Of a stretch of DNA of 13,605 nt, positions 1 to 13,605 are shown one piece after another. Each line of letters opens with the position of its first letter. Position 1 is the first letter of the stretch. The notes beneath the pieces were generated by a model that saw only the letters and a program-made list of their open reading frames with translations, did no database searches and was not told the origin of the DNA. Source of the stretch: a virus. Made by a program: the position numbers and the translations under genes. The stretch lies in the UHGV virus genome UHGV-0206243; one strand, given 5' to 3'.

Positions 1-63
1 AATCGGTGGAGCTGCATGACAAAGTCATCGGGCATTATCTGAACATAAAACACTATCAATAAG

Positions 64-1449
64 TTGGAGTCATTACCTGATACTCTGAGAAGAGAAACTT
101 TAGAATCATTTGCTATGATTATGCGATTCACTATACAGACAGTAAAAAATAATGATGAGTTGGTCGCGAAGGCCAATAATTTGATAAATGAATCTTTGAA
201 TGCTATTGTTAATTTTGATGAGTTTGAGGAGGCTAAATTAAATATTATTGCTGATAAATTGTGCCAGTTGATTATGCTTTTTAGAGATGCTGGCAATAAT
301 ATTATGTTTAGCCGGGCGACCTCAGAAAACTTACGCAGATTTATATATGAATGCCCATTGAAGAGAATCAAAGATTGCCTAACTAAAGTTGTTTCTATTT
401 CAGGAAATAAATTGTCTGCATCTAAAATAAGTTATGACTTCAGATATGATAAAAATAAAGGTGTGGTAAAGGTTTCGAGATTTGTTCTTCTAAATAAGAA
501 TGATGAAAGAATAGTTGAGCTGTTACCCAAAAAGAATAATGTCGTTGTATTGTCGGATGTTATCCCTCAAGAAGTATTTAGAGGATGTAAGTCTGATATC
601 TTAGAAATCATGAATCCTTATTCTTTGGGGCTATTCCCTGTCAATGAAGGACGTGGTTTTTATGTTTTTTTTGGAAATTCCTACAACCCTGTTGTTAACT
701 TTTTGTCACATGTTGTTTCTCTGGGAGTATTAATGCTTTCAAAAATGTTTGATGGCGAAAATGTTAATCATGTCAGCCCGTTGAGGGCATTTCCTCAGCG
801 TTATTATTTATTAGATAAAACAGTCAATCATGCTCAGTTAAATTCTGCTGATGGCTCTGAGTTGGCGGAGATTCTGAAGAAAAATACAAAAATAACAGAA
901 AACATAAACCTTCTTCTCGCTGAATTTAACTTAGCGGTTGATATAGTTAGAGTTAATGACATAATTCATAAGATAGTTATAAACCAAGATGCTGTTAATT
1001 TAGAATTGACAGATGTAGGGTTTGGAATATCACAAGTGTTGCCTGTCTTGGTTCAAGCTTATTTGTCACCAAAGGGCTCGATTACAATAATAGAACAACC
1101 AGAAATACATTTGCATCCTAAAATGCAGGCATGGTTAACTGACGCATTAATTAAAATATCTATGCAAGAAAAGAAAATTTTTATTATTGAAACACATAGT
1201 GATGCATTAGTTAGACGGATTAGATTAAGAATTGTTGATGAATCAAGCGAACTTACTGAGGACCATGTGGCAATCTATCATCTTGAGCGAGATGAAGAGG
1301 GAACATCAACCTTACTAAATAGAGTGGCTGTGAATTCTGATGGAGATATCACATGGCCAAATGAGTTTATGGATGTTGAGATTCAGGATACAATTAGAAT
1401 ACAGGAATTAAAAATACAAAAAATAATGAACTCAAAGGGAGTTCATTGA
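64..1449 (+). CDS. Hypothetical ABC/SMC-type ATPase C-terminal-module protein (signature-like, Walker-B-like and H-loop motifs; no Walker A); candidate defence component
   Basis: 461-codon ORF in about one-third-GC DNA. C-terminus reads GFGISQVLPVL...ITIIEQPEIHLHP...IFIIETHSDAL, resembling the signature/Walker B/H-loop end of AAA_21/DUF3696-type ATPases. No GxxxxGK[ST] anywhere. Start is uncertain: TTG at 64 follows an in-frame stop at 46-48, first ATG is at 112, and no clear Shine-Dalgarno precedes either. Confidence 0.6.
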   Translation: MESLPDTLRRETLESFAMIMRFTIQTVKNNDELVAKANNLINESLNAIVNFDEFEEAKLNIIADKLCQLIMLFRDAGNNIMFSRATSENLRRFIYECPLKRIKDCLTKVVSISGNKLSASKISYDFRYDKNKGVVKVSRFVLLNKNDERIVELLPKKNNVVVLSDVIPQEVFRGCKSDILEIMNPYSLGLFPVNEGRGFYVFFGNSYNPVVNFLSHVVSLGVLMLSKMFDGENVNHVSPLRAFPQRYYLLDKTVNHAQLNSADGSELAEILKKNTKITENINLLLAEFNLAVDIVRVNDIIHKIVINQDAVNLELTDVGFGISQVLPVLVQAYLSPKGSITIIEQPEIHLHPKMQAWLTDALIKISMQEKKIFIIETHSDALVRRIRLRIVDESSELTEDHVAIYHLERDEEGTSTLLNRVAVNSDGDITWPNEFMDVEIQDTIRIQELKIQKIMNSKGVH

Positions 1450-1450
1450 T

Positions 1451-2452
1451 ATGCTTTGTGCTGTTTGTTTGTGTCCTGAATTTGTTGCTGCTAATATTTC
1501 TGATGTTAAAGTTTTTAGCGGTTTTTTTATTGAAACCATTGTTAATGGTGAAAATGAGTTGATTCTTGATGCTGATGGAAAAATTCGCTTAGGTTATTTA
1601 AAGTCTTGCGGAAACAACAAGGATTCTTTTTTGTTTTTTAAGAAGTGGGAGTCTGAGTTATCTAAAGCTCCTTCAGGCAAGATATTGCGTACACCAGTGC
1701 CGAATAGTTCTGAGGATATTAAGGATATAGTTGTTTGTGCAGTTGCTAATGCAGCCACTACTTTTGATAAGCATATCGTAGTGTTAGATAATAATAGTTA
1801 CTCTGGATATATTGATGAATTAATCAGGCAAAGGATTAATTTGTTAAATCTTAATAGTATAAGCTTAATATCAAAGGATGGTCGAGTGCAGCGTCCTTTG
1901 AATTTTATAAAGTTTGATAGTGATTTATCTTGGGTGCTTCAAAGATTGGGGCGTCGCTCTGCTAAAGGATATGGTGAAGATGATTTTAATGATTTTATAC
2001 GGGATATGTTATTAGCTAAGAATTATGAGGTAAAAGATCAAACTAGAGAGGGAGAGTCTCAATCTGGTAAAAGTGCGGGTGAATTAGATCTTGTTATTGA
2101 AGATAAAGGAAATCTATTTGCTATAATAGAAGCATTGATTTTAAAATCTCTAGATCAAGCTAACATATTAAAGCATTATTCAAAGCTAATTGGTAACTAT
2201 AATCCTATTAATGTTAAACGCTTGTTTTTAATTGCTTATTATACTGGTGCAAAATTTGATGCTTGGTGTGAGAGATACATTGATTATCTAAAAGAGATTA
2301 CTCCGGTAGATATTGGTGTAGAATCTCATGAGATAGTTGGGATTAAAGAAGTGGAGACTCCATATATAGGTTTGAGAAAAATTGAACATCATTTTAGATA
2401 TGCGGGAGAACATTATTTTTGTGTTCATTATGCAGTCAAGATGGCTCGGTGA
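1451..2452 (+). CDS. Hypothetical protein, putative effector partner (possible PD-(D/E)xK-like nuclease core)
   Basis: 333-codon ORF. Shine-Dalgarno AAAGGGAG sits about 10 nt upstream, inside the 3' end of the preceding gene, and the ATG is 2 nt after that gene's TGA. Segment GELDLVIEDKGNLFAIIEALILK resembles the beta-strand core of PD-(D/E)xK nucleases but is not canonical. AT-rich like its neighbour. Confidence 0.6.
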   Translation: MLCAVCLCPEFVAANISDVKVFSGFFIETIVNGENELILDADGKIRLGYLKSCGNNKDSFLFFKKWESELSKAPSGKILRTPVPNSSEDIKDIVVCAVANAATTFDKHIVVLDNNSYSGYIDELIRQRINLLNLNSISLISKDGRVQRPLNFIKFDSDLSWVLQRLGRRSAKGYGEDDFNDFIRDMLLAKNYEVKDQTREGESQSGKSAGELDLVIEDKGNLFAIIEALILKSLDQANILKHYSKLIGNYNPINVKRLFLIAYYTGAKFDAWCERYIDYLKEITPVDIGVESHEIVGIKEVETPYIGLRKIEHHFRYAGEHYFCVHYAVKMAR

Positions 2453-2464
2453 TGTTTAATATGA

Positions 2465-2490
2465 ATGCACCTATAGGGTGCATCATTTTG
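2465..2490 (+). terminator. Candidate intrinsic terminator after the cargo operon
   Basis: Inverted repeat ATGCACC / GGTGCAT around a 5-nt loop, followed by CATTTTG, starting 12 nt after the stop at 2450-2452. The T-run is short, so this is weak. Confidence 0.35.
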
Positions 2491-2589
2491 CATGTTTAAA
2501 TACGTTCTCTATGTATGTGCGCTAGGCTTGACTGGCGCGCTTGTACTATGTTTATGCAACTGCATTAAAACCGACCCATGAAGCGGGCG

Positions 2590-2608
2590 GGCGAGGCGGG
2601 GAAAGCAC
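2590..2608. other. cos: P2-type cos cohesive-end sequence
   Basis: GGCGAGGCGGGGAAAGCAC matches the 19-nt P2 cohesive end as I recall it, and it lies just beyond the 3' end of Q as in P2. Confidence 0.8.
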
Positions 2609-2750
2609 TGCGCGCTGGCGGTGGTGCTGATTTTATTTTTTCAGCGTCTGAGCGCGTCGTGATGGCGTTTGGATTGTTCGCCGGGGCGTTGGTGTGTATG
2701 CGGGCTGTTTTGTGCGGTGGTGAGCGTGTGAGGGCGTGATGACGGGGTGT

Positions 2751-2773
2751 AAAAAAGCCGCCCGCAGGCGGCG
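2751..2773 (-). terminator. Intrinsic terminator downstream of portal gene Q
   Basis: On the minus strand: GCCGCC-TGCG-GGCGGC hairpin followed by TTTTTT, a few nt after the Q stop at 2778-2780. Confidence 0.7.
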
Positions 2774-2777
2774 ATGT

Positions 2778-3812
2778 TCAGCCGTTGTCAGTGTCCAGTG
2801 AGTAGTTTTTAAAGCGGATGACCTCCTGACCGAGCCAGCCGTTTATCTCGCGGATCCTGTCCTGTAACGGGATAAGCTCATTGCGGACAAAGACCTTTGC
2901 CACTTTCTCAATATCACCCAGCGACCCGACGTTCTCCGGCTTGCCGCCCATCAACTGAAAAGGGATGCGGTGCGCGTCCAGCAGGTCTGCGGCGCTGGCT
3001 TTTTTGATATTAAAAAAATCGTCCTTCGTTGCCACTTCACTGAGCGGGATAATTTTAATACCGTCGGCTTTTCCCTGTGGGGCGTAGAGAAACAGGTTTT
3101 TAAAGTTGTTGCGGCCTTTCGACTTCACCATGTTTTCGCGAAGCATTTCGATATCGTTGCGATCCTGCACGGCATCGGTGACGTACATGATATATCCGGC
3201 ATGAGCGCCGTTTTCGTAATACTTGCGGCGGAACAGCGTGGCCGACTCATTCAGCCAGGCAGAGTTAAGGGCGCTGAGATATTCCGGCAGGCCGTACAGC
3301 TCCTGATTGATATCCGGCTCCAGCAGGTGAAACACGGAGCCGGGCGCGAAAGGTGTCGGCTCGTTGAAGGATGGCACCCACCAGTAAACATCCTCCTCCA
3401 CGCCACGGCGGGTATATTTTGCCGGTGAGGTTTCCAGTCTGATGACCTTACCGGTAGTGCTGTAGCGCTTTTCCAGAAACGCATTACCGAACACCAGAAA
3501 ATCCAGCACAAAGCGGCTGAAATCCTGCTGGGAAAGCCACGGATGCGGGATAAATGTCGAGGCCAGAATATTACGTTTGACGTAAATCGGTGAGCTGTGA
3601 TGCACGGCAGCACGCAGGCTTTTTGCCAGACCGGTAAAGCTGACCGGTGGCTCATACCATCTGCCGTTACTGATGCATTCGACGTAATCCAGAATGTCAC
3701 GGCGGTCGAGTACCGGCACCGGCTCACCAAAGGTGAATGCCTCCATTTTCGGGGCGCTGGTGGTCATTGTTTTTGCCGCAGGTTGCGGTGTTTTCCCTTT
3801 TTTCTTGCTCAT
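2778..3812 (-). CDS. Q: Capsid portal protein
   Basis: 344 aa, the length I recall for P2 gpQ. Sequence matches recalled P2 portal; its ATG overlaps the stop of the upstream terminase remnant. Confidence 0.92.
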   Translation of the reverse strand: MSKKKGKTPQPAAKTMTTSAPKMEAFTFGEPVPVLDRRDILDYVECISNGRWYEPPVSFTGLAKSLRAAVHHSSPIYVKRNILASTFIPHPWLSQQDFSRFVLDFLVFGNAFLEKRYSTTGKVIRLETSPAKYTRRGVEEDVYWWVPSFNEPTPFAPGSVFHLLEPDINQELYGLPEYLSALNSAWLNESATLFRRKYYENGAHAGYIMYVTDAVQDRNDIEMLRENMVKSKGRNNFKNLFLYAPQGKADGIKIIPLSEVATKDDFFNIKKASAADLLDAHRIPFQLMGGKPENVGSLGDIEKVAKVFVRNELIPLQDRIREINGWLGQEVIRFKNYSLDTDNG

Positions 3813-4774
3813 CAGTAAAACTCCAGAATGGTGGATGTCAGCGGGGTGCTGATACCGGCGGTGAGTGGCTCATTTAACAGGGCGTGCATGGTCGCCCAGG
3901 CGAGGTCGGCGTGGCTGGCTTCCTCGCTGCGGCTGGCCTCATAGGTGGCGCTGCGTCCGCTGCTGGTCATGGTCTTGCGGATAGCCATAAACGAGCTGGT
4001 GATGTCGGTGGCGCTGACGTCATATTCCAGACAGCCACGGCGGATAACGTCTTTTGCCTTGAGCACCATTGCGGTTTTCATTTCCGGCGTGTAGCGGATA
4101 TCGCGCGCGGCGGGATAGAACGAGCGCACGAGCTGGAACACGCCGACACCGAGGCCGGTGGCATCAATACCGATGTATTCGACGTTGTATTTTTCAGTGA
4201 GTTTGCGGATGGATTCCGCCTGGGTGGCAAAGTCCATGCCTTTCCACTGATGGCGCTCAAGTATTCTGAATTTGCCACCGGCCACCACCGGCGGTGCCAG
4301 CACCACGCATCCGGCGCTGTCGCCACGGTGTGACGGGTCGTAACCAATCCATACCGGGCGGGAGCCGAACGGATTGGTGGCAAACGGCGCGTAGTCTTCC
4401 CATTCTTCCAGCGTGTCGACCATGCAGCGTTGCAGCTCCTCGAACGGGAACACTGACGCCTTGTCGTCAACAAATTCACACATGAACAGGTTTTTAAAAT
4501 CGTCGGCGCTGTTTTCGCGTTTGAGCTGCTCAATGTCGAACAGCGTGCAGCCGCCTTTCAGCGCGTCCTCAATGGTGACAATCTGCCGCCACTGACCGTC
4601 CGCACAGAGAAGCCCACCGGCAAGAGCGTTATGACTGACGTCGATTTCCACGCGTTCGGCGGCGCTGGCGCGTCCCCGGTTGAACAGTTCACCCGACCAG
4701 AACGGGTAGGCGTCGTGCGCCAGCGTGGACGGGGTGGAGAAATAGGTCGAGCGCAGGTGACTCTGTGAGGCCAT
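3812..4774 (-). pseudogene. P: Terminase large subunit, C-terminal (nuclease-domain) remnant; N-terminal ATPase region deleted
   Basis: 320-codon ORF ending directly at the Q start, as in the P2 P-Q operon. Contains nuclease-domain-like segments (IGIDATGLGVGV, DPSHRGDSAGCVV) but no Walker A. Recalled P2 gpP is about 590 aa. The frame is closed by a stop at 4787-4789, right beside the lysB start. Confidence 0.8.
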
Positions 4775-4783
4775 ACCTGAACC

Positions 4784-5209
4784 ATGTCAAAGCTGATGAT
4801 TGTGCTGGTTGTGTTGTTATCACTGGCGGTGGCCGGTCTGTTTCTGGCGAAGCATGAAAACGCCAGCCTGCGCGCCTTGCTGGACAGGGCGAACAACGTC
4901 GCCAGTGAACAGCAGACGACCATCACCATGCTGAAAAATCAGCTTCATGTTGCCATCACCAGGGCAGACAAAAACGAGCTGGCGCAGGTGGCTCTGCGTC
5001 AGGAACTGGAGAACGCCGCGAAGCGTGAAGCACAGCGCGAGAAAACCATCACGAGATTACTCAATGAAAACGAAGATTTTCGCCGCTGGTACGGTGCTGA
5101 CCTGCCTGATGCTGTGCGCCGGTTGCACCAGCGCCCCGCCTGCACTGACGCCAGTGATTGTCGCCAACGCCTGCCCGAAAGTGAGTCTTTGCCCGATGCC
5201 GGGCAGTGA
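4784..5209 (+). CDS. lysB: Rz-like i-spanin LysB
   Basis: 141 aa with an N-terminal hydrophobic segment (MSKLMIVLVVLLSLAVAGLFL), matching recalled P2 LysB. Confidence 0.9.
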   Translation: MSKLMIVLVVLLSLAVAGLFLAKHENASLRALLDRANNVASEQQTTITMLKNQLHVAITRADKNELAQVALRQELENAAKREAQREKTITRLLNENEDFRRWYGADLPDAVRRLHQRPACTDASDCRQRLPESESLPDAGQ

Positions 5210-5354
5210 CCCGGAGACGAACGGCGATTTAAGTGCCGATATCCGGCAGCTTGAGAACGCGCTGGCACGCTGTGCCAGCCAGGTAAAAATGATTAAACAC
5301 TGTCAGGACGAAAACGATGCTCAAACCCGACAGCCTGCGCAGGGCGCTGACTGA
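5064..5354 (+). CDS. lysC: Rz1-like o-spanin lipoprotein LysC
   Basis: 96 codons in the +1 frame, starting inside lysB and running into R. Lipoprotein signal MKTKIFAAGTVLTCLMLCAGC. The track ORF starts upstream at 4947; the start at 5064 is chosen from the signal peptide. Confidence 0.8.
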   Translation: MKTKIFAAGTVLTCLMLCAGCTSAPPALTPVIVANACPKVSLCPMPGSDPETNGDLSADIRQLENALARCASQVKMIKHCQDENDAQTRQPAQGAD

Positions 5355-5784
5355 TGCCGTCACGGTGCTGAAAACCAGTCCAGAGATGCTGCGGATATTC
5401 GTGGATAACGGGAGTATTGCCTCCACACTGGCGACGTCGCTGTCATTCGAAAAGCGTTACACGCTCAATGTGATTGTGACCGACTTTACCGGTGATTTTG
5501 ACCTGCTCATCGTGCCGGTGCTGGCGTGGCTGCGGGAAAATCAGCCCGACATCATGACCACCGACGAAGGCCAGAAAAAGGGCTTCACGTTTTATGCGGA
5601 CATCAACAATGACAGCAGCTTTGATATCAGCATCAGCCTGATGCTGACCGAGCGCACGCTGGTCAGTGAGGTTGACGGCGCGCTGCATGTGAAGAATATC
5701 CCGGAACCACCGCCGCCGGAGCCGGTCACCCGCCCGATGGAGCTTTATATCAATGGTGAACTGGTGAGTAAGTGGGATGAATGA
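5317..5784 (+). CDS. R: Tail completion protein R
   Basis: 155 aa; matches recalled P2 gpR in length and sequence. Confidence 0.9.
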   Translation: MLKPDSLRRALTDAVTVLKTSPEMLRIFVDNGSIASTLATSLSFEKRYTLNVIVTDFTGDFDLLIVPVLAWLRENQPDIMTTDEGQKKGFTFYADINNDSSFDISISLMLTERTLVSEVDGALHVKNIPEPPPPEPVTRPMELYINGELVSKWDE

Positions 5785-6229
5785 GTTTAAGCGTTTTGAA
5801 GACCGGCTGACCGGACTGATTGAGTCGCTGTCACCATCAGGGCGTCGGCGACTGAGTGCCGAACTGGCGAAACGTCTGCGGCAGAGTCAGCAGCATCGTG
5901 TGATGGCACAGAAAGCCCCGGACGGCACCCCCTACGCGCCACGCCAGCAGCAGAGCGCCAGAAAAAAGACCGGTCGCGTTAAGCGAAAAATGTTTGCGAA
6001 ACTTATCACCAGTCGTTTTTTGCATATCCGCGCCAGCCCTGAACAGGCATCAATGGAGTTTTACGGCGGGAAGTCACCGAAAATCGCCAGTGTGCATCAG
6101 TTCGGTCTGTCGGAAGAAACCCGGAAAGACGGTAAGAAAATTGATTATCCGGCGCGTCCTCTGCTCGGCTTTACCGGTGAGGATGTGCAGATGATTGAAG
6201 AGATTATCCTGGCTCACCTCGACCGTTAG
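5777..6229 (+). CDS. S: Tail completion protein S
   Basis: 150 aa; matches recalled P2 gpS; overlaps the R stop. Confidence 0.9.
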   Translation: MNEFKRFEDRLTGLIESLSPSGRRRLSAELAKRLRQSQQHRVMAQKAPDGTPYAPRQQQSARKKTGRVKRKMFAKLITSRFLHIRASPEQASMEFYGGKSPKIASVHQFGLSEETRKDGKKIDYPARPLLGFTGEDVQMIEEIILAHLDR

Positions 6230-6230
6230 T

Positions 6231-6248
6231 TGTGCCATTCCCGACACA
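6231..6248 (+). promoter_or_regulatory. Candidate Ogr-dependent late promoter activator site (TGT-N12-ACA) upstream of V
   Basis: TGTGCCATTCCCGACACA is an exact TGT-N12-ACA dyad in the S-V intergenic gap, the form described for P2 late promoters. Its spacing to the V ATG at 6296 is tighter than I would expect. Confidence 0.45.
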
Positions 6249-6295
6249 TCATCGTTACATTGCCGCCGGTATGACCCGGAGGCATCCTTCCCGTT

Positions 6296-6931
6296 ATGAA
6301 CACTCTCGCAAATATCCAGGAACTCGCGCGCGCACTGCGCAACATGATTCGTACCGGCCTTGTCGTCGAAACCAACCTTAAAGCCGGTCGCTGCCGTGTG
6401 CAGACCGGCGGCATGTGCACCGACTGGCTTCAGTGGCTGACCCATCGCGCCGGACGTTCGCGCACATGGTGGGCACCTTCCGTGGGGGAACAGGTGCTGA
6501 TTCTGGCCGTGGGCGGTGAACTCGACACGGCGTTCGTTCTGCCGGGGATTTATTCCGGCGATAACCCCGCGCCGTCTGCGTCGGCGGATGCCCTGCATAT
6601 CCGTTTCCCTGACGGGGCGGTGATTGAGTATGAACCTGAAACCAGTGCACTGACGGTAAGCGGAATTAAAACGGCCAGCGTGACGGCTTCTGATTCTGTT
6701 ACTGCCACGGTGCCGGTGGTCATGGTGAAAGCGTCAACCCGCGTCACCCTGGACACACCGGAGGTGGTCTGCACCAACAGGCTGATTACCGGCACGCTGG
6801 AAGTACAGAAGGGTGGGACGATGCGCGGCAACATTGAACACACCGGCGGTGAACTCTCATCAAACGGTAAGGTACTGCATACCCATAAACACCCCGGCGA
6901 CAGCGGCGGCACAACCGGGAGTCCTCTATGA
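6296..6931 (+). CDS. V: Baseplate spike/assembly protein V
   Basis: 211 aa; matches recalled P2 gpV. Confidence 0.92.
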   Translation: MNTLANIQELARALRNMIRTGLVVETNLKAGRCRVQTGGMCTDWLQWLTHRAGRSRTWWAPSVGEQVLILAVGGELDTAFVLPGIYSGDNPAPSASADALHIRFPDGAVIEYEPETSALTVSGIKTASVTASDSVTATVPVVMVKASTRVTLDTPEVVCTNRLITGTLEVQKGGTMRGNIEHTGGELSSNGKVLHTHKHPGDSGGTTGSPL

Positions 6932-7275
6932 CAGCGCGTTATCTCGGAATGAATCGCAGTGATGGCCTGACTGTCACTGACCTTGAGCATATCAGCCAGA
7001 GTATCGGCGATATCCTGCGCACACCGGTCGGCTCACGGGTGATGCGTCGTGATTACGGCTCGTTGCTGGCGTCAATGATTGACCAGCCGCAGACTCCGGC
7101 GCTTGAGTTGCAGATTAAGGTCGCCTGTTACATGGCAGTGCTGAAATGGGAACCCCGCGTCACCCTGTCATCCGTCACCACTGAGCGCAGTTTTGACGGG
7201 CGAATGACGGTCACGTTAACCGGCCAGCACAACGACACCGGCCAGCCACTTTCGTTAACCATCCCTGTGAGTTGA
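6928..7275 (+). CDS. W: Baseplate protein W (gp25-like)
   Basis: 115 aa; matches recalled P2 gpW; GGGAG Shine-Dalgarno upstream; ATG overlaps the V stop. Confidence 0.92.
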   Translation: MTARYLGMNRSDGLTVTDLEHISQSIGDILRTPVGSRVMRRDYGSLLASMIDQPQTPALELQIKVACYMAVLKWEPRVTLSSVTTERSFDGRMTVTLTGQHNDTGQPLSLTIPVS

Positions 7276-7279
7276 AACC

Positions 7280-7384
7280 ATGCCGATTATCGACCTGAAC
7301 CAGCTACCCGCACCGGATGTGGTCGAGGAGCTGGACTTTGAAACCATTCTCGCCGAACGCAAGGCGACACTGATTTCCCTTTAA
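7280..7384 (+). pseudogene. J: Baseplate protein J, N-terminal 34-codon stub
   Basis: [34 protein letters not shown] matches the recalled P2 gpJ N-terminus, then hits TAA at 7382-7384 where sheath-gene sequence begins out of frame. Confidence 0.85.
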
Positions 7385-8193
7385 CCGGTGTTAAACCGCG
7401 TATTCTTGGTGTGCCGGGGCTGGATACCAAAGAGGTGGCTGTTGCACTGGCATCAGTCTGTCAGAAGCTGCGCGCTTTCGGGTATATCAGCGCATGGGGC
7501 TGTAAAACCATTTCCGAGGTGAAAGCCTACCGCCAGAATTTCAGCCAGCGTGAGCTGATGGTCATCTGGCCGGATTTCCTCGCATGGGATACAGTCAACA
7601 GTACCACCGCCACCGCGTATGCCACCGCCCGTGCGCTGGGTCTGCGTGCCAAAATCGACCAGGAGCAGGGCTGGCATAAAACGCTGTCCAACGTCGGGGT
7701 AAACGGTGTTACCGGCATCAGCGCGTCCGTATTCTGGGATTTGCAGGAGTCCGGTACCGATGCTGACCTGCTTAACGAGTCTGGCGTCACAACGCTGATT
7801 CGCCGCGACGGTTTCCGATTCTGGGGTAACCGTACCTGCTCCGATGACCCGCTGTTCCTCTTTGAAAACTACACCCGCACCGCGCAGGTGTTGGCCGACA
7901 CGATGGCTGAGGCGCACATGTGGGCGGTGGATAAGCCCATCACCGCAACGCTGATTCGCGACATCGTTGACGGCATCAATGCCAAATTTCGTGAGCTGAA
8001 AACAAACGGCTATATCGTGGATGCGACCTGCTGGTTCAGCGAAGAATCCAACGATGCGGAAACCCTTAAGGCCGGAAAACTGTATATCGACTACGACTAT
8101 ACACCGGTGCCTCCTCTCGAAAACCTGACCCTGCGCCAGCGTATTACCGATAAATACCTGGCAAATCTGGTCACCTCGGTTAACAGCAATTAA
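7384..8193 (+). pseudogene. FI: Tail sheath protein FI, C-terminal portion only
   Basis: Sheath-frame homology ([18 protein letters not shown]... to ...[10 protein letters not shown]) begins at about 7384; the track ORF starts at GTG 7411. About 260-270 codons remain of a recalled ~396-aa protein. No native start or promoter. Confidence 0.85.
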
Positions 8194-8205
8194 GGAGCCT
8201 GACCG

Positions 8206-8724
8206 ATGGCAATGCCGCGCAAACTCAAGTTAATGAACGTCTTTCTGAACGGCTACAGCTATCAGGGCGTTGCAAAGTCCGTCACGCTGCCAAAACTGAC
8301 CCGTAAGCTCGAAAACTATCGCGGTGCGGGGATGAACGGCAGCGCACCGGTAGACCTCGGCCTTGATGATGATGCGCTGTCAATGGAGTGGTCGCTCGGG
8401 GGCTTCCCGGATTCGGTTATCTGGGAGCTTTACGCCGCAACCGGCGTGGATGCCGTGCCGATTCGTTTTGCAGGCTCTTACCAGCGCGACGATACCGGCG
8501 AAACGGTGGCCGTCGAAGTGGTCATGCGTGGACGTCAGAAAGAAATCGACACCGGCGAGGGCAAACAGGGAGAAGACACCGAGTCGAAAATCTCCGTGGT
8601 CTGCACCTATTTCCGGCTGACGATGGACGGTAAGGAGCTGGTCGAAATCGACACCATCAACATGATTGAGAAGGTGAACGGCGTCGACCGGCTGGAGCAA
8701 CACCGCCGCAATATCGGCCTGTGA
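8206..8724 (+). CDS. FII: Tail tube protein FII
   Basis: 172 aa; matches recalled P2 gpFII; AAGGAG Shine-Dalgarno upstream. Confidence 0.92.
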   Translation: MAMPRKLKLMNVFLNGYSYQGVAKSVTLPKLTRKLENYRGAGMNGSAPVDLGLDDDALSMEWSLGGFPDSVIWELYAATGVDAVPIRFAGSYQRDDTGETVAVEVVMRGRQKEIDTGEGKQGEDTESKISVVCTYFRLTMDGKELVEIDTINMIEKVNGVDRLEQHRRNIGL

Positions 8725-8780
8725 TTTTCATCCGGTCAGCCTGGCTGACCGGTTAACACCGATTCAGAAGTGAGAAAACC

Positions 8781-9056
8781 ATGAACAAAGAAAATGTGAT
8801 TACCCTGGACAATCCGGTCAAGCGTGGTGAGCAGGTTATCGAACAGGTCACGCTGATGAAACCCAATGCCGGGACGCTGCGCGGTGTCAGTCTGGCTGCG
8901 GTCGCGAACTCTGAAGTCGATGCACTGATTAAGGTGCTGCCGCGCATGACGGCACCGATGCTGACCGAGCAGGAAGTCGCCGCGCTGGAACTGCCTGACC
9001 TTGTGGCGCTGGCCGGTAAGGTGGTCGGTTTTTTGTCGCCGAACTCGGTGCAGTGA
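8781..9056 (+). CDS. E: Tail assembly chaperone E
   Basis: 91 aa; matches recalled P2 gpE. Confidence 0.9.
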   Translation: MNKENVITLDNPVKRGEQVIEQVTLMKPNAGTLRGVSLAAVANSEVDALIKVLPRMTAPMLTEQEVAALELPDLVALAGKVVGFLSPNSVQ

Positions 9057-9208
9057 CGTTTCCGAAAAATCTCTCGGTCGATGACCTGATGGCAGATGTG
9101 GCTGTGATATTTCACTGGCCGCCATCAGAACTGTATCCCATGAGCCTGACCGAACTCATCACATGGCGCGAAAAGGCGCTCCGGCGAAGCGGAAACACGA
9201 ATGAGTAA
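8781..9208 (+). CDS. E': Tail assembly chaperone E+E' (programmed -1 frameshift product; slip site TTTTTTG at 9029..9035)
   Basis: I translated the -1 frame from the T6G slip site by hand: it is open to TAA at 9206-9208 and ends ...LTELITWREKALRRSGNTNE, about 142 aa in total, overlapping the T start. Confidence 0.8.
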
Positions 9209-11648
9209 CAATGTAAAATTACAGGTATTGCTCAGGGCTGTTGACCAGGCATCCCGCCCGTTTAAATCCATCCGTACAGCGAGCAAGTCGCTGTCGGGGG
9301 ATATCCGGGAAACACAAAAATCACTGCGCGAGCTGAACGGTCAGGCGTCCCGTATTGAGGGATTTCGCAAGACCAGTGCGCAGCTCGCCGTGACTGGTCA
9401 TGCACTTGAAAAGGCTCGGCAGGAAGCCGAAGCCCTTGCCACACAGTTTAAAAACACCGAACGTCCGACCCGTGCTCAGGCGAAAGTGCTGGAGTCCGCG
9501 AAGCGTGCGGCGGAGGACTTACAGGCGAAATATAACCGCCTGACGGATTCCGTTAAACGCCAGCAACGGGAACTGGCCGCTGTGGGAATTAATACCCGCA
9601 ATCTTGCACATGATGAGCAGGGACTGAAAAACCGTATCAGTGAAACCACCGCACAGCTTAACCGTCAGCGCGACGCGCTGGCGCGTGTCAGTGCGCAACA
9701 GGCAAAACTTAACGCAGTCAAACAGCGTTATCAGGCAGGCAAGGAACTGGCCGGAAATATGGCCTCGGTGGGCGCTGCCGGTGTGGGGATTGCGGCGGCG
9801 GGAACGATGGCCGGAGTTAAGCTGCTGATGCCCGGTTATGAGTTTGCGCAGAAAAACTCAGAATTGCAGGCCGTGCTCGGTGTGGCAAAAGATTCCGCCG
9901 AAATGGCCGCGCTACGCAAACAGGCGCGCCAGCTCGGCGACAATACCGCCGCCTCGGCGGATGATGCGGCCGGTGCGCAGATTATTATTGCGAAAGCCGG
10001 TGGGGATGTTGATGCCATTCAGGCGGCAACGCCGGTCACGCTGAACATGGCGCTGGCGAACCGCCGCACGATGGAAGAAAACGCCGCCCTGCTGATGGGG
10101 ATGAAATCCGCCTTTCAGCTTTCAAACGATAAGGTCGCTCATATCGGGGATGTTCTCTCCATGACGATGAACAAAACCGCCGCCGATTTTGACGGCATGA
10201 GCGATGCGCTGACCTATGCCGCACCTGTGGCAAAAAATGCCGGTGTCAGCATTGAAGAAACCGCCGCGATGGTCGGGGCGCTGCATGATGCAAAAATCAC
10301 AGGCTCAATGGCGGGGACGGGAAGCCGTGCCGTGTTAAGCCGCCTGCAGGCACCGACGGGAAAAGCATGGGATGCACTCAAAGAGCTTGGAGTGAAAACC
10401 TCAGACAGCAAGGGAAACACCCGGCCAATATTTACCATTCTGAAAGAAATGCAGGCCAGTTTTGAGAAAAACCGGCTCGGTACTGCCCAGCAGGCTGAAT
10501 ACATGAAAACTATTTTCGGGGAGGAGGCCAGCTCAGCCGCCGCCGTGCTGATGACTGCCGCCTCAACCGGAAAGCTGGACAAACTGGCCGCTGCGTTTAA
10601 AGCCTCAGACGGAAAGACCGCAGAGCTGGTAAATATCATGCAGGACAACCTCGGCGGTGACTTTAAGGAGTTTCAGTCCGCTTATGAGGCGGTGGGGACT
10701 GACCTGTTTGACCAGCAGGAAGGCGCACTGCGTAAGCTCACGCAGACGGCCACAAAGTATGTGTTAAAACTCGACGGCTGGATCCAGAAAAACAAATCAC
10801 TGGCGTCAACCATCGGCCTTATTGTCGGTGGTGCACTGGCGCTGACTGGCATCATCGGTGCAATTGGTCTTGTAGCCTGGCCGGTTATCACCGGCATCAA
10901 TGCCATCATCGCGGCAGCAGGCGCAATGGGGGCAGTCTTCACGACGGTTGGCAGTGCTGTTATGACGGCCATCGGGGCGATTAGCTGGCCGGTTGTGGCC
11001 GTGGTGGCCGCCATTGTCGCCGGGGCGTTGCTTATCCGTAAATACTGGGAGCCTGTCAGCGCATTCTTTGGCGGTGTGGTGGAAGGGCTGAAAGCGGCAT
11101 TTGCGCCGGTGGGGGAACTGTTCACGCCACTTAAGCCGGTGTTTGACTGGCTGGGCGAAAAGTTACAGGCCGCGTGGCAGTGGTTTAAAAACCTGATTGC
11201 CCCGGTCAAAGCCACCCAGGACACCCTGAACCGTTGCCGTGACACGGGCGTCATGTTCGGGCAGGCACTGGCTGACGCGCTGATGCTGCCGCTTAATGCG
11301 TTCAACAAACTGCGCGGCGGTATTGACTGGGTACTGGAAAAACTCGGCGTCATCAACAAAGAGTCAGGCACGCTTGACCAGACTGCCGCCAGAACTCATG
11401 CCGCCACGTATGGCACCGGTGGTTATATTCCGGCGACCAGCTCTTATGCTGGCTATCAGGCTTATCAGCCAGTTACGGCACCGGCTGGCCGCTCTTATGT
11501 GGACCAGAGTAAAAACGAATATCACATCAGCCTGACGGGGGGTACTGCGCCGGGGACACAGCTTGACCGCCAGTTACAGGATGCGCTCGAAAAATACGAG
11601 CGGGATAAACGTGCGCGCGCCCGTGCCAGCATGATGCATGACGGTTAA
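9201..11648 (+). CDS. T: Tail tape measure protein T
   Basis: 815 aa; coiled-coil-like N-terminal region and a Gly/Ala-rich hydrophobic C-terminal region; matches recalled P2 gpT. Confidence 0.92.
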   Translation: MSNNVKLQVLLRAVDQASRPFKSIRTASKSLSGDIRETQKSLRELNGQASRIEGFRKTSAQLAVTGHALEKARQEAEALATQFKNTERPTRAQAKVLESAKRAAEDLQAKYNRLTDSVKRQQRELAAVGINTRNLAHDEQGLKNRISETTAQLNRQRDALARVSAQQAKLNAVKQRYQAGKELAGNMASVGAAGVGIAAAGTMAGVKLLMPGYEFAQKNSELQAVLGVAKDSAEMAALRKQARQLGDNTAASADDAAGAQIIIAKAGGDVDAIQAATPVTLNMALANRRTMEENAALLMGMKSAFQLSNDKVAHIGDVLSMTMNKTAADFDGMSDALTYAAPVAKNAGVSIEETAAMVGALHDAKITGSMAGTGSRAVLSRLQAPTGKAWDALKELGVKTSDSKGNTRPIFTILKEMQASFEKNRLGTAQQAEYMKTIFGEEASSAAAVLMTAASTGKLDKLAAAFKASDGKTAELVNIMQDNLGGDFKEFQSAYEAVGTDLFDQQEGALRKLTQTATKYVLKLDGWIQKNKSLASTIGLIVGGALALTGIIGAIGLVAWPVITGINAIIAAAGAMGAVFTTVGSAVMTAIGAISWPVVAVVAAIVAGALLIRKYWEPVSAFFGGVVEGLKAAFAPVGELFTPLKPVFDWLGEKLQAAWQWFKNLIAPVKATQDTLNRCRDTGVMFGQALADALMLPLNAFNKLRGGIDWVLEKLGVINKESGTLDQTAARTHAATYGTGGYIPATSSYAGYQAYQPVTAPAGRSYVDQSKNEYHISLTGGTAPGTQLDRQLQDALEKYERDKRARARASMMHDG

Positions 11649-11662
11649 GGAGGTGACGAAAA

Positions 11663-12142
11663 ATGATGCTCGCGTTAGGTATGTTTGTTTTTATGCGCCA
11701 GACGCTGCCACACCAGACCATGCAGCGTGAATCAGATTATCGCTGGCCGTCAAATTCCCGTATCGGTAAACGGGATGCCTTTCAGTTTCTCGGTGTTGGC
11801 GAGGAAAACATCACGCTGGCCGGTGTGCTTTATCCCGAACTGACCGGCGGCAAGCTGACGATGACCACGCTCAGGCTGATGGCAGAGGAAGGTCGGGCGT
11901 GGCCGTTGCTGGATGGTACCGGCATGATTTACGGCATGTATGTCATCAGTAAGGTGAGTGAAACAGGGAGTATTTTCTTTGCAGACGGCACACCCCGAAA
12001 AATTGATTTTACGCTGTCGCTCACCCGCGTTGATGAATCACTGGCCGCGCTTTATGGCGATATCGGTAAACAGGCGGAATCGCTCATCGGTAAGGCTGGC
12101 AGTATGGCGACTAAATTCACGGGTATGACGGAGGCGGGATAA
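11663..12142 (+). CDS. U: Tail protein U
   Basis: 159 aa; AAGGAGG Shine-Dalgarno upstream; matches recalled P2 gpU. Confidence 0.9.
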   Translation: MMLALGMFVFMRQTLPHQTMQRESDYRWPSNSRIGKRDAFQFLGVGEENITLAGVLYPELTGGKLTMTTLRLMAEEGRAWPLLDGTGMIYGMYVISKVSETGSIFFADGTPRKIDFTLSLTRVDESLAALYGDIGKQAESLIGKAGSMATKFTGMTEAG

Positions 12143-13305
12143 TGCTGGATGCGCTGACATTTGATGCAGGCAGTACGCTGACGCCGGATTACATGCTGAT
12201 GCTCGACAGCAGGGATATTACCGGCAATATCAGCGACCGTCTGATGAGCATGACCCTGACGGATAACCGGGGCTTTGAGGCTGACCAGCTTGATATTGAA
12301 CTGAACGACGCCGACGGGCAGGTCGGGCTACCGATTCGTGGCGCTGTCCTGACGGTGTATATCGGCTGGAAAGGTTTTGCCCTGGTATGCAAAGGGAAAT
12401 TTACCGTTGATGAGGTTGAACACCGGGGCGCGCCGGATGTGGTTACCATCCGCGCCCGGAGTGCAGATTTCCGCGGGACGCTTAATTCCCGCCGGGAAGG
12501 CTCCTGGCATGACACCACGCTCGGCGCGATTGTTGAGGCGATAGCCTCCCGTAACAGGCTGGAAGCCAGTGTCGCTCCGTCACTGGCCGGAATTAAAATT
12601 CCGCATATCGACCAGTCGCAGGAGTCTGATGCGAAATTCCTGACCCGCCTTGCTGAACGCAACGGCGGTGAGGTGTCGGTAAAAATGGGAAAACTGCTGT
12701 TTCTCAAAGCGGGGCAGGGGGTGACGGCCAGCGGTAAAAAAATCCCGCAGATTACCATCACCCGCAGCGACGGCGACCGTCATCATTTTGCGATTGCTGA
12801 CCGTGGAGCTTACACCGGCGTAACGGCAAAGTGGTTACACACCAAAGACCCGAAGCCGCAAAAGCAGAAGGTAAAACTGAAACGCAAAAAGAAAGAGAAA
12901 CACCTGCGCGCACTGGAGCACCCAAAAGCGAAACCGGTCAGGCAGAAGAAAGCGCCAAAAGTACCGGAAGCGCGCGAAGGTGAATATATGGCCGGTGAGG
13001 CTGACAATGTTTTTGCCCTGACCACGGTATATGCCACGAAAGCGCAGGCCATGCGCGCCGCTCAGGCGAAGTGGGATAAACTGCAACGGGGCGTTGCGGA
13101 GTTCTCCATCAGCCTGGCTACCGGTCGGGCAGATATTTACACGGAAACACCGGTTAAAGTGTCAGGCTTTAAGCGCGTCATAGACGAGCAGGACTGGACA
13201 ATCACTAAGGTGACACATTTTCTGAATAATAGCGGCTTCACGACGTCCCTGGAGCTTGAGGTCAGGCTTTCTGATGTGGAGTACGAAACAGAAGATGATG
13301 AGTGA
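12142..13305 (+). CDS. D: Tail protein D
   Basis: 387 aa; GGAGG Shine-Dalgarno upstream; matches recalled P2 gpD, including an internal lysine-rich stretch. Confidence 0.9.
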   Translation: MLDALTFDAGSTLTPDYMLMLDSRDITGNISDRLMSMTLTDNRGFEADQLDIELNDADGQVGLPIRGAVLTVYIGWKGFALVCKGKFTVDEVEHRGAPDVVTIRARSADFRGTLNSRREGSWHDTTLGAIVEAIASRNRLEASVAPSLAGIKIPHIDQSQESDAKFLTRLAERNGGEVSVKMGKLLFLKAGQGVTASGKKIPQITITRSDGDRHHFAIADRGAYTGVTAKWLHTKDPKPQKQKVKLKRKKKEKHLRALEHPKAKPVRQKKAPKVPEAREGEYMAGEADNVFALTTVYATKAQAMRAAQAKWDKLQRGVAEFSISLATGRADIYTETPVKVSGFKRVIDEQDWTITKVTHFLNNSGFTTSLELEVRLSDVEYETEDDE

Positions 13306-13323
13306 TGTTTTTATTTTATCTAT

Positions 13324-13352
13324 TTGTTTTATAAGGATAAATTAACTAAAAT
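13324..13352 (+). promoter_or_regulatory. Candidate sigma70 promoter for ogr
   Basis: TTGTTT, 17-nt spacer, TAAAAT in the AT-rich D-ogr gap; a GAAGAGG Shine-Dalgarno and the ogr ATG follow. Confidence 0.45.
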
Positions 13353-13386
13353 GGCACCATCAACAAAACCGGAAGAGGTGCTCGCG

Positions 13387-13605
13387 ATGTTTCATTGTCC
13401 TTTATGCCAGCATGCCGCACATGCGCGTACAAGCCGCTATATCACTGACACGACAAAAGAGCGTTATCACCAGTGCCAGAACGTGAATTGCAGCGCCACG
13501 TTCATCACTTATGAGTCGGTACAGAGATACATCGTGAAGCCGGGAGAAGTCCACGCCGTGAGGCCGCACCCGTTGCCGTCAGGGCAGCAAATTATGTGGA
13601 TGTAA
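13387..13605 (+). CDS. ogr: Late transcription activator Ogr (zinc-finger)
   Basis: 72 aa from MFHCPLCQHA... to ...QQIMWM with a Cys-x2-Cys...Cys-x4-Cys pattern; matches recalled P2 Ogr. The track ORF's TTG start at 13324 lies in the promoter region and is rejected. Confidence 0.9.
   Translation: MFHCPLCQHAAHARTSRYITDTTKERYHQCQNVNCSATFITYESVQRYIVKPGEVHAVRPHPLPSGQQIMWM

What the first reader, a model, noticed from the sequence alone, without database searches (positions are those of the whole stretch)
64..1449. ABC-ATPase C-terminal module without Walker A and with Walker B reading EQPE instead of DEPE
The last ~130 residues carry the signature-like, Walker-B-like (ITIIEQPEIHLHP) and H-loop (IIETHSD) motifs of AAA_21/DUF3696-type ATPases, but no P-loop exists in the 461 aa. 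At the positions of the usual Asp-Glu pair the protein has Glu-Gln, the substitution that traps hydrolysis-dead ABC/SMC/Rad50 mutants. Either this is a split ATPase with the Walker A half encoded upstream, or a naturally inactive ATPase-derived sensor or scaffold.
Basis: partly seen in the sequence, partly recalled or inferred. Interest (0 to 1): 0.7.

Follow-up and report, generated by a model that had tools for sequence, protein, structure and literature searches.

The report
IS1-truncated phage-defence ATPase gene
The "ATPase without a P-loop" is the tail of an ordinary 555-residue defence ATPase gene whose first 99 codons, including the P-loop, were cut off by a recent IS1 insertion; the unusual EQPE motif is real but normal for its family.

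Summary
But the ORF is not a natural protein. Window 1-77 is the exact right end of a 768-bp IS1 element, and homology to the host gene starts at base 78. The TTG start and the first five codons are IS1 sequence or hybrid. In intact copies the gene encodes 555 aa with a canonical Walker A (GANSCGKS, residues 28-35). One such copy is a metagenome scaffold 100.000% identical to window 78-13605. The window therefore holds a recently made pseudogene, not a split or P-loop-less ATPase.

EQPE does align to Walker B: E at the Asp position, Q at the catalytic-Glu position. It is conserved in 117/120 close homologues and 135/138 cluster representatives down to 31% identity. Nearly all full-length members also have a Walker A. 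The published Menshen NsnB ATPase has the matching EN.

The gene belongs to a two-gene cassette: an NsnB-like ABC ATPase plus a 333-aa protein modelled as a PIN-like domain fused to a restriction-endonuclease-like domain. The cassette sits in the gpA-gpQ defence hotspot of a defective P2-like prophage. The finding is ordinary. One side lead: the clade's loss of the Walker B glutamate goes with a conserved Glu before the H-loop His.

The parts
1..77 (+). Right end of IS1: the 3' end of insB (stop codon at 40-42) and the terminal inverted repeat (55-77). The IS reads in the same direction as the ATPase gene.
   Evidence: Thousands of IS1 matches to window 1-~110 in E. coli genomes. Exact match to the last 77 nt of an annotated 768-bp IS1A element, L027 810-1577.
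78..1449 (+). 3' 1372 nt of the ABC-ATPase gene (last base of codon 99, codons 100-555, stop). This is a 5'-truncated pseudogene that has lost 296 nt, including Walker A.
   Evidence: Alignment to the intact gene L001:3705-5372 starts exactly at window 78. The protein is identical from Asp100 onward. 100.000% identical to the intact allele in L015.
64..77 (+). Artefactual start of the 461-aa ORF: the TTG and the following codons are IS1 sequence.
   Evidence: Gene callers in public assemblies used either this TTG (461 aa) or the ATG at 115 (444 aa).
1018..1035 (+). Signature-motif equivalent GFGISQ (GxG in place of SGG); full-length residues 413-418.
   Evidence: Invariant D411-V-G-F-G-I-S-Q418 in alignment A3. 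The published NsnB description gives GxG in place of SGG.
1087..1119 (+). Walker B and D-loop, IIEQPEIHLHP. E438 (nt 1093-1095) is at the Asp position; Q439 (nt 1096-1098) is at the catalytic-Glu position.
   Evidence: HMM alignments to OLD 6p74 (EEPE) and PtuA (DEIE; engineered DQIE). Invariant in A3. EQPE in 117/120 and 135/138 homologues.
1183..1203 (+). H-loop IIETHSD (His472), with the clade-specific Glu470 two residues before the His.
   Evidence: E470 and H472 are invariant in A3. E-[TS]-H-S occurs in 10 of the 11 sampled Walker B variant ATPases, against [ST]-T-H-S in canonical relatives.
1451..2452 (+). Intact partner gene (333 aa): N-terminal PIN-like domain lacking most of the PIN acidic residues, plus a C-terminal restriction-endonuclease-like (PD-(D/E)xK-type) domain. 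Presumed effector.
2778..4774 (-). P2-type portal gene (gpQ, 2778-3812) and a terminase gene remnant (3812-4774, 320 of 590 aa). These mark the right border of the gpA-gpQ cargo hotspot.
   Evidence: Pfam Phage_portal, Terminase_6N/6C. Annotation of intact prophages. Deletion junction at ~4779/4780.

Best explanation
The ORF at 64-1449 is the 3' remnant of a 555-codon gene disrupted by IS1. The IS1 right end abuts the last base of codon 99. This removes the N-terminal beta-hairpin, the Walker A P-loop (GANSCGKS, residues 28-35), helix 1 and the Arg59 segment that matches the Q-to-R replacement described for NsnB. The remnant has also lost its own promoter and start codon, so the 461-aa protein is very probably not made or not folded, and the cassette is inactivated in this strain. 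These last points are inferred.

The intact gene encodes an NsnB-like (DUF3696-related) ABC ATPase. It is followed, with one base between stop and start, by a 333-aa protein modelled as a PIN-like plus restriction-endonuclease-like fusion. The pair is low-GC cargo (33% against 56%) in the gpA-gpQ defence hotspot of a P2-like prophage. That prophage is itself defective, with two internal deletions.

By analogy with HEC-03, Menshen NsnB-NsnC, Septu and PARIS, the intact ATPase would oligomerise, hold the nuclease partner in check, and release or activate it on sensing infection, in a way that depends on ATP binding. This is inferred, not shown here.

The E-Q Walker B is the native, conserved state of the clade, not a defect of this copy.
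For: IS1 boundary:
- Window 1-77 is the exact end of an annotated IS1A element; homology to the gene begins at base 78.
- Intact 555-aa gene with Walker A in E. coli E308, N61 and ARS-C301 and in 10 further assemblies.
- L015 carries the same defective prophage. It matches window 78-13605 over 13,528 nt with 0 mismatches and 0 gaps, and its ATPase gene is intact.
- The same IS1/gene junction occurs in five independent short-read contigs.

Family:
- PADLOC NsnB 2.3e-51, HEC-03B 5.2e-43, PDC-M55A 4.7e-41, AriA 3.3e-28.
- Full-length Pfam AAA_15 7.6e-25.
- AF2 model pLDDT 83. Foldseek best matches are GajA, retron Eco8, OLD, PtuA and SMC/Rad50 heads.
- EQPE is conserved together with Walker A.
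- NsnB is described as having DE replaced by EN, Q by R and SGG by GxG (PMC12065111).

Partner and context:
- Partner fold.
- Cassette conserved in Pseudomonas and Shewanella.
- Hotspot described in PMC9122126.
- HEC-03 (ABC ATPase plus PIN protein, both genes required) was validated experimentally (10.1101/2024.01.29.577857).
- Prophage deletions. GC content.
Against: - The other side of the IS1 is not visible. The window starts inside IS1, and every public contig carrying the junction also ends in IS1. I cannot say whether the 5' 296 nt survive upstream (simple insertion) or were deleted.
- Expression of the remnant was not tested. Read-through from insB, or internal starts such as the ATG at 115, could give some product.
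- Anti-phage activity of this particular cassette has not been shown anywhere I could find.
- The partner does not match PADLOC models of NsnC or of the HEC-03 PIN protein.
Confidence: 0.96

Rival explanations
1. Functional split ATPase: the Walker A half is a separate upstream gene whose product assembles with this C-terminal half.
For: The missing N-terminal part did lie directly upstream in the ancestral allele. The 5' 296 nt might still exist on the far side of IS1; this is unseen.
Against: All intact copies are one continuous 555-codon gene. The break is exactly at an IS1 terminus and falls inside codon 99. The event is so recent that there are no differences from the intact allele over 13.5 kb. 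A 99-aa fragment would end within a beta-sheet element of the AF2 model.
Confidence: 0.01
2. A naturally P-loop-less ATPase-derived sensor or scaffold, that is, a genuine 461-aa protein family.
For: Gene callers have deposited the 461-aa and 444-aa forms as proteins.
Against: Those calls all come from contigs that begin inside IS1. 125 of 140 cluster representatives have a Walker A within the first 90 residues, and two of the other 15 were seen to be short fragments. The N-terminus of the ORF is IS1 sequence.
Confidence: 0.01
3. Assembly artefact: the IS1 end was joined to the gene by misassembly, and the gene is intact in the organism.
For: The window and all related contigs end in a repeat, which is where assemblers make errors.
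Against: The identical junction 40-mer occurs in five contigs from five different samples and assemblers (L021-L025). The join is exactly at the IS1 terminus, as expected of transposition.
Confidence: 0.03
4. EQPE marks this copy, or the clade, as a hydrolysis-dead ATP-binding switch.
For: Q occupies the catalytic-Glu position. The engineered E-to-Q change is used to trap the related PtuA (PDB 9nnk). Walker A is strictly kept, so nucleotide binding appears to be selected.
Against: Q is not specific to this copy. It is under strong conservation across more than 130 representatives, so it is a functional state rather than decay. An invariant Glu470 before the H-loop His accompanies the loss and could supply the base. 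No biochemistry exists either way.
Confidence: 0.35

Closest known systems
Menshen NsnB ATPase (NsnABC; Millman et al. 2022; analysis in PMC12065111)
   Same: Best PADLOC match (2.3e-51). ABC ATPase of the AAA_15/OLD-ABC type. Several homologues carry a DUF3696 hit. It has the same set of non-canonical motifs: Walker B acid-amide pair (EN in NsnB, EQ here), Arg59 in the segment that fits the published Q-to-R change, and GxG in place of SGG. It is followed by a gene for an inactive-PIN plus nuclease protein.
   Different: There is no NsnA (ParB/DUF262) gene. The ATPase gene follows gpA after 240 bp of non-coding DNA. The protein is longer (555 aa against 349-387 aa for the three sampled Menshen ATPases). 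The partner's C-terminal domain is restriction-endonuclease-like, and its sequence does not match NsnC models.
HEC-03 (Payne et al., bioRxiv 10.1101/2024.01.29.577857)
   Same: Two-gene system of an ABC ATPase plus a PIN-domain protein, with both genes required for defence. The ATPase matches the PADLOC HEC-03 model at 5.2e-43.
   Different: The HEC-03 partner is described as a VapC-like PIN protein. Here the PIN-like domain lacks most catalytic acidic residues and is fused to a restriction-endonuclease-like domain. The partner does not match the HEC-03 model. This cassette is untested.
PARIS (AriA/AriB), Septu (PtuA/PtuB), Gabija GajA and OLD nucleases
   Same: Same ABC-ATPase fold and the hhhh-acid-x-P-E-x-x-L-H-P Walker B/D-loop block. 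Same logic of an ATPase controlling a nuclease. P2 old occupies the same prophage hotspot.
   Different: These have a carboxylate at the catalytic position (EE or DE) and [ST]-T-H-S at the H-loop. Their effectors are Toprim or HNH nucleases.
IS1 insertional inactivation of prophage cargo genes
   Same: A 768-bp IS1 ends precisely at the break. Another strain (GF47) has an IS1 in the same hotspot next to different cargo.
   Different: Nothing unusual. A 2026 preprint reports that pseudogenes with similarity to defence genes are rare in P2 elements, about 2% of pseudogenes, so this is one of the uncommon cases.

Membership tests
ABC-type ATPase (AAA_15/AAA_21, OLD-ABC clade) | Walker A GxxxxGK[ST] | tested here: not met
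   Absent from the window ORF. Present as GANSCGKS at residues 28-35 of the intact gene. The window copy fails only because of the IS1 truncation.
ABC-type ATPase (AAA_15/AAA_21, OLD-ABC clade) | Walker B, D-loop and H-loop block that aligns with solved members | tested here: met
   Aligns with OLD 6p74 and PtuA. Pfam AAA_15 and AAA_21 above gathering scores.
ABC-type ATPase (AAA_15/AAA_21, OLD-ABC clade) | ABC ATPase fold | tested here: met
   AF2 model of the full-length homologue P0001 (pLDDT 83, pTM 0.83). Foldseek probability 1.00 to GajA, OLD, PtuA and SMC/Rad50 heads.
ABC-type ATPase (AAA_15/AAA_21, OLD-ABC clade) | Catalytic Glu directly after the Walker B acidic residue | tested here: not met
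   Gln439, conserved across the clade.
ABC-type ATPase (AAA_15/AAA_21, OLD-ABC clade) | ATP binding and hydrolysis | not testable with these tools
   Needs purified intact protein.
Menshen (NsnABC) | NsnB-like ATPase with acid-amide Walker B, Arg for the Q motif, GxG signature | tested here: met
   PADLOC NsnB 2.3e-51. Motifs in A3 against the published description.
Menshen (NsnABC) | NsnA (ParB/DUF262 plus ParBDB) gene directly upstream | tested here: not met
   In intact loci gpA is followed by 240 bp and then the ATPase gene. No DUF262 gene in E. coli, Pseudomonas or Shewanella loci. Sampled true Menshen loci do have one.
Menshen (NsnABC) | NsnC-like effector: N-terminal inactive PIN plus C-terminal nuclease | tested here: inconclusive
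   The fold agrees: PIN-like N-domain, restriction-endonuclease-like C-domain. No sequence match to NsnC models. A restriction-endonuclease fold was not among the NsnC effector families in the passages I read.
HEC-03-type two-gene ABC ATPase plus PIN system | Two adjacent co-oriented genes: ABC ATPase and PIN-domain protein | tested here: met
   Gene order and 1-nt spacing. PADLOC HEC-03B 5.2e-43 for the ATPase. PIN-like fold in the partner.
HEC-03-type two-gene ABC ATPase plus PIN system | Anti-phage activity requiring both genes | not testable with these tools
   Shown for HEC-03 itself, not for this cassette.
IS1 insertion | Exact IS1 terminus at the break | tested here: met
IS1 insertion | Target-site duplication and the second junction | not testable with these tools
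   The left junction lies outside the window and is absent from all contigs found.

The most novel reading that the evidence does not exclude
The whole DUF3696/NsnB-like clade, including this family, may have moved its catalytic glutamate. Eleven ATPases were sampled from four phyla, from two-gene cassettes and from three-gene Menshen loci. In all eleven, the residue after the Walker B acid is Q, N or S. In ten of them (the eleventh gave no H-loop match) a Glu sits two residues before the H-loop His (E-[TS]-H-S). Canonical DE/EE relatives (OLD, PtuA, a DEPE plasmid ATPase) have [ST]-T-H-S. Either Glu470 takes over as the catalytic base, or these proteins are natural slow or non-hydrolysing ATP switches.
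Probability: 0.3. Interest if true: 0.5.

Novelty: new member of a known kind. Interest (0 to 1): 0.15.

Why it matters
For the scan, this is a caution. An ORF that starts at a window or contig edge next to an IS end can look like a domain-deleted protein, and such truncated calls are already deposited as proteins.

Biologically it documents a recent IS1 knock-out of a candidate defence cassette in the P2 gpA-gpQ hotspot, a kind of event a recent survey reports as uncommon.

The intact cassette (an NsnB-like ATPase without NsnA, plus a PIN-like/restriction-endonuclease-like protein) is an untested relative of HEC-03 and Menshen. It is found in Enterobacterales, Pseudomonas and Shewanella.

The clade-wide pairing of E[QN]PE with ETHS gives a concrete mutational test of how these defence ATPases use ATP.

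Tried and rejected
- **IS1/gene junction in one genome per species (genome contigs):** no match.
- **Source strain in 5,426 complete E. coli genomes:** the six long matches all start at base 78, so the disrupted allele is not there.
- **Other side of IS1 via exact-protein look-ups of the 461-aa and 444-aa forms:** every contig stops inside IS1.
- **An N-terminal fragment protein reading into IS1:** none found. The search returned only unrelated partial calls, plus two contigs that stop at nt 172 of the gene.
- **Partner protein against Pfam, NCBIfam and PADLOC:** no significant family. Fold comparison was needed.
- **Promoter scan of 1-2800:** no more sites than chance, 13 against 11.6, so nothing can be said about expression of the remnant.
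- **Supplementary alignments of the Menshen paper:** not held.
- **Rejected: a match to NACHT C-terminal helical domain 2.** E 0.047, below threshold.
- **Rejected: PARIS membership.** The AriA match is weaker than NsnB, and there is no DUF4435 partner.

Full report
**Observation**

The ORF 64..1449 (+, 461 aa, TTG start) is present. It contains GFGISQ (nt 1018-1035), IIEQPEIHLHP (nt 1087-1119) and IIETHSD (nt 1183-1203). It has no GxxxxGK[ST], nor any GK[ST]. Pfam AAA_15 and AAA_21 match only with the C-terminal parts of their profiles: positions 244-374 of 374 and 192-303 of 304.

**What the left edge is**

A megablast of window 1-2600 against complete E. coli genomes gave thousands of IS1 hits to the first ~110 bases. 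It gave only six long matches, and all six start at base 78.

Window 1-77 is an exact copy of the last 77 nt of an annotated 768-bp IS1A element (L027 810-1577). That element ends in the IS1 terminal repeat ...ATCAATAAGTTGGAGTCATTACC. Bases 1-42 are the end of insB.

In the six genomes, the sequence matching window 78 onward lies inside a 1668-nt gene annotated "AAA family ATPase" (WP_024249463.1, 555 aa). Window 78 corresponds to nt 297 of that gene.

Translation of the intact gene gives LLGANSCGKSALINSL, a canonical Walker A at residues 28-35. The window ORF is identical to this protein from Asp100 to the end. Its first four codons are IS1 sequence and the fifth is a hybrid codon.

The missing P-loop is thus the result of an IS1 disruption. 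The 461-aa "protein" is a mechanical ORF.

**How recent and how real**

An exact-protein look-up of the truncated terminase found a metagenome scaffold, L015. It carries the same defective prophage but an intact 555-aa ATPase gene, preceded by gpA and the early genes up to the integrase. Its reverse complement matches window 78-13605 over 13,528 nt with no mismatch and no gap. The IS1 event is therefore very recent.

The same IS1/gene junction 40-mer occurs in five contigs from five different samples (L021-L025), so it is not a one-off misassembly.

All of these contigs stop inside IS1, as does the window. The junction was not found in one-genome-per-species contigs. The far side of the IS1 is therefore unseen. 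I cannot say whether the 5' 296 nt persist there.

**Context**

Compared with the intact P2-like prophage of E. coli E308, the window aligns in three blocks: 78-4780, 4779-7388 and 7382-13605. About 5.7 kb is lost between the first two (part of the terminase gene through the lysis genes). About 5.1 kb is lost between the last two (baseplate J to tail sheath). The window ends at ogr.

The ATPase gene and the following gene lie between the replication endonuclease gene gpA and the portal gene gpQ. This is the P2 hotspot that holds old and tin in P2 itself and many defence systems in other prophages (PMC9122126). Other prophages found here carry different cargo at the same place, including a TIR-domain gene, an AAA_23/MC5/CTD9 set and a 976-aa AAA_22 protein.

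The cargo has 33% G+C against 56% for the phage genes.

**The ATPase family**

The full-length protein matches:
- AAA_15 (7.6e-25) and AAA_21 across both halves;
- PADLOC NsnB (2.3e-51), HEC-03B (5.2e-43), PDC-M55A (4.7e-41) and AriA (3.3e-28).

An AF2 model of a 94%-identical homologue, built with 60 sequences, has pLDDT 83 and pTM 0.83. Its best Foldseek matches are GajA, the retron Eco8 effector, Thermus OLD, PtuA and SMC/Rad50 heads.

In that model the residues lost to IS1 form strands 2-27, the P-loop, helix 31-48 and strand 83-89. The remnant therefore lacks part of the core sheet.

**Is EQPE Walker B, and is it a defect?**

HMM alignments place IIEQPEIHLHP on IIEEPEMYLHP of Thermus OLD and on IDEIELHLHP of retron PtuA. 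In OLD, E276 is described as replacing the Walker B Asp, and H283 is the D-loop residue (PMC7049728). E438 is therefore the Asp equivalent and Q439 sits at the catalytic-Glu position. PDB entries of PtuA include the engineered DQIE form (9nnk).

The motif is not a lesion of this copy.
- EQPE is present in 117 of the 120 best homologues, down to 40% identity.
- It is present in 135 of 138 motif-bearing 50%-cluster representatives, down to 31% identity; the other three read QQPE.
- 125 of the 140 representatives have a Walker A within the first 90 residues, and two of the other 15 were seen to be short fragments.
- In a 60-sequence alignment the invariant residues are G28, G33-K34-S35, D411-V-G-F-G-I-S-Q418, E438-Q-P-E441, E470 and H472. 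R59 is nearly invariant.
- This matches the published description of Menshen NsnB: DE replaced by EN, the Q motif by Arg, and SGG by GxG (PMC12065111).

**A wider sample**

tblastn against plasmids returned mostly "DUF3696 domain-containing" ATPases. Eight were fetched.

| Loci | Gene context |
|---|---|
| L034-L036 | Three-gene Menshen: DUF262 gene, ATPase, third gene |
| L030, L031, L033 | Two genes, no DUF262 |
| L032 | ATPase plus a DUF2325 protein |
| L037 | Canonical DEPE ATPase |

Seven of the eight plasmid ATPases, together with three members of this family (eleven loci in the table in all, including L037), gave ten Walker B variant proteins. They read EQPE, ENPE or DSPE at Walker B. 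Nine of the ten gave a recognisable H-loop, and all nine read E-[TS]-H-S. The DEPE protein, OLD and two PtuA proteins read [ST]-T-H-S.

This pairing suggests one of two things: the catalytic base has moved to Glu470, or the clade works as a binding switch with little hydrolysis. This is inference from a small sample. I had no model coordinates to check the geometry.

**The partner**

Window 1451-2452 encodes a 333-aa protein with no Pfam, NCBIfam or PADLOC family. It is 100% identical to a protein seen on 302 contigs and has about 50 homologues, mostly of ~333 aa.

It follows the ATPase gene in Pseudomonas and Shewanella chromosomes too, at 35% and 33% identity, again with no DUF262 gene.

Invariant residues cluster in the C-terminal domain: D196, E200, E211, D213, E227, K245. 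The PIN-like domain keeps only D40 of the usual acidic set. This is the NsnC-type layout of an inactive PIN plus a nuclease.

HEC-03, a two-gene system of an ABC ATPase plus a PIN protein, has been shown to defend against phages and to need both genes (10.1101/2024.01.29.577857).

**Mechanism**

Shown: the gene structure, the IS1 break, the motif mapping, the conservation, the predicted folds and the genomic context.

Inferred, by analogy with HEC-03, the Menshen models, Septu and PARIS: the intact ATPase oligomerises, binds the nuclease partner through its C-terminal region, and couples ATP binding to release or activation of the nuclease on infection.

Inferred for this window: the cassette is dead, because the ATPase has lost its promoter, its start codon and 99 residues of its core. 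The partner gene is still intact only because the event is recent.

**Verdict**

The headline feature, an ABC ATPase module without Walker A, is an IS1-made pseudogene and is ordinary. The EQPE motif is real, correctly mapped, and typical of a known clade. The underlying cassette is a new, untested member of the ABC-ATPase-plus-PIN-effector kind of defence system.

Noticed in passing
window 4779-4780 and 7382-7388: Two internal deletion junctions of the P2-like prophage. The first joins the terminase gene to the lysB region (~5.7 kb lost). The second joins baseplate J to the tail sheath gene (~5.1 kb lost). The same defective prophage occurs in at least 13 other places in public assemblies.
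   Followed up: partly
window 1451-2452: The intact 333-aa partner gene has no family match but a confident two-domain model: a PIN-like domain lacking most catalytic acids, plus a restriction-endonuclease-like domain with invariant D213, E227 and K245. It is conserved next to the ATPase in E. coli, Pseudomonas and Shewanella.
   Followed up: yes
window 1183-1203 (full-length E470-T-H-S) and loci L030-L037: In the sampled DUF3696/NsnB-like ATPases, loss of the Walker B catalytic Glu (Q, N or S instead) goes with a Glu two residues before the H-loop His. Canonical relatives have S or T there. This may be a relocated catalytic residue.
   Followed up: partly
L038 3001-3172 and L039 382-552: Two independent assemblies (a genome and a metagenome) have contigs that stop at exactly nt 172 of the same ATPase gene with no IS sequence visible. 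This may mark another breakpoint in this gene, or the unseen left junction of an IS1-associated deletion.
   Followed up: partly
L027 810-1577: E. coli GF47 has a complete IS1A in the same gpA-gpQ hotspot, next to a different cargo gene (a ParB N-terminal domain protein). IS1 has therefore hit this hotspot more than once.
   Followed up: no
window 1424-1448: A 10-bp-stem hairpin (TAATGAACTCAAAGGGAGTTCATTG) spans the ATPase stop codon and ends just before the partner's start at 1451. It could affect coupled translation. Terminator-like hairpins are over-represented in 1-2800: 9 found against 1.3 expected.
   Followed up: no
window 78-2452 versus 2778-13605: The two cargo genes have 33% G+C against 56% for the phage structural genes, as expected of horizontally acquired hotspot cargo.
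   Followed up: yes
L016, L019, L020 (same hotspot in other prophages): Other cargo found between gpA and the portal gene: a TIR_2 protein with small ORFs; an AAA_23 645-aa protein with MC5 and CTD9 domain proteins; and a 976-aa AAA_22 protein.
   Followed up: no
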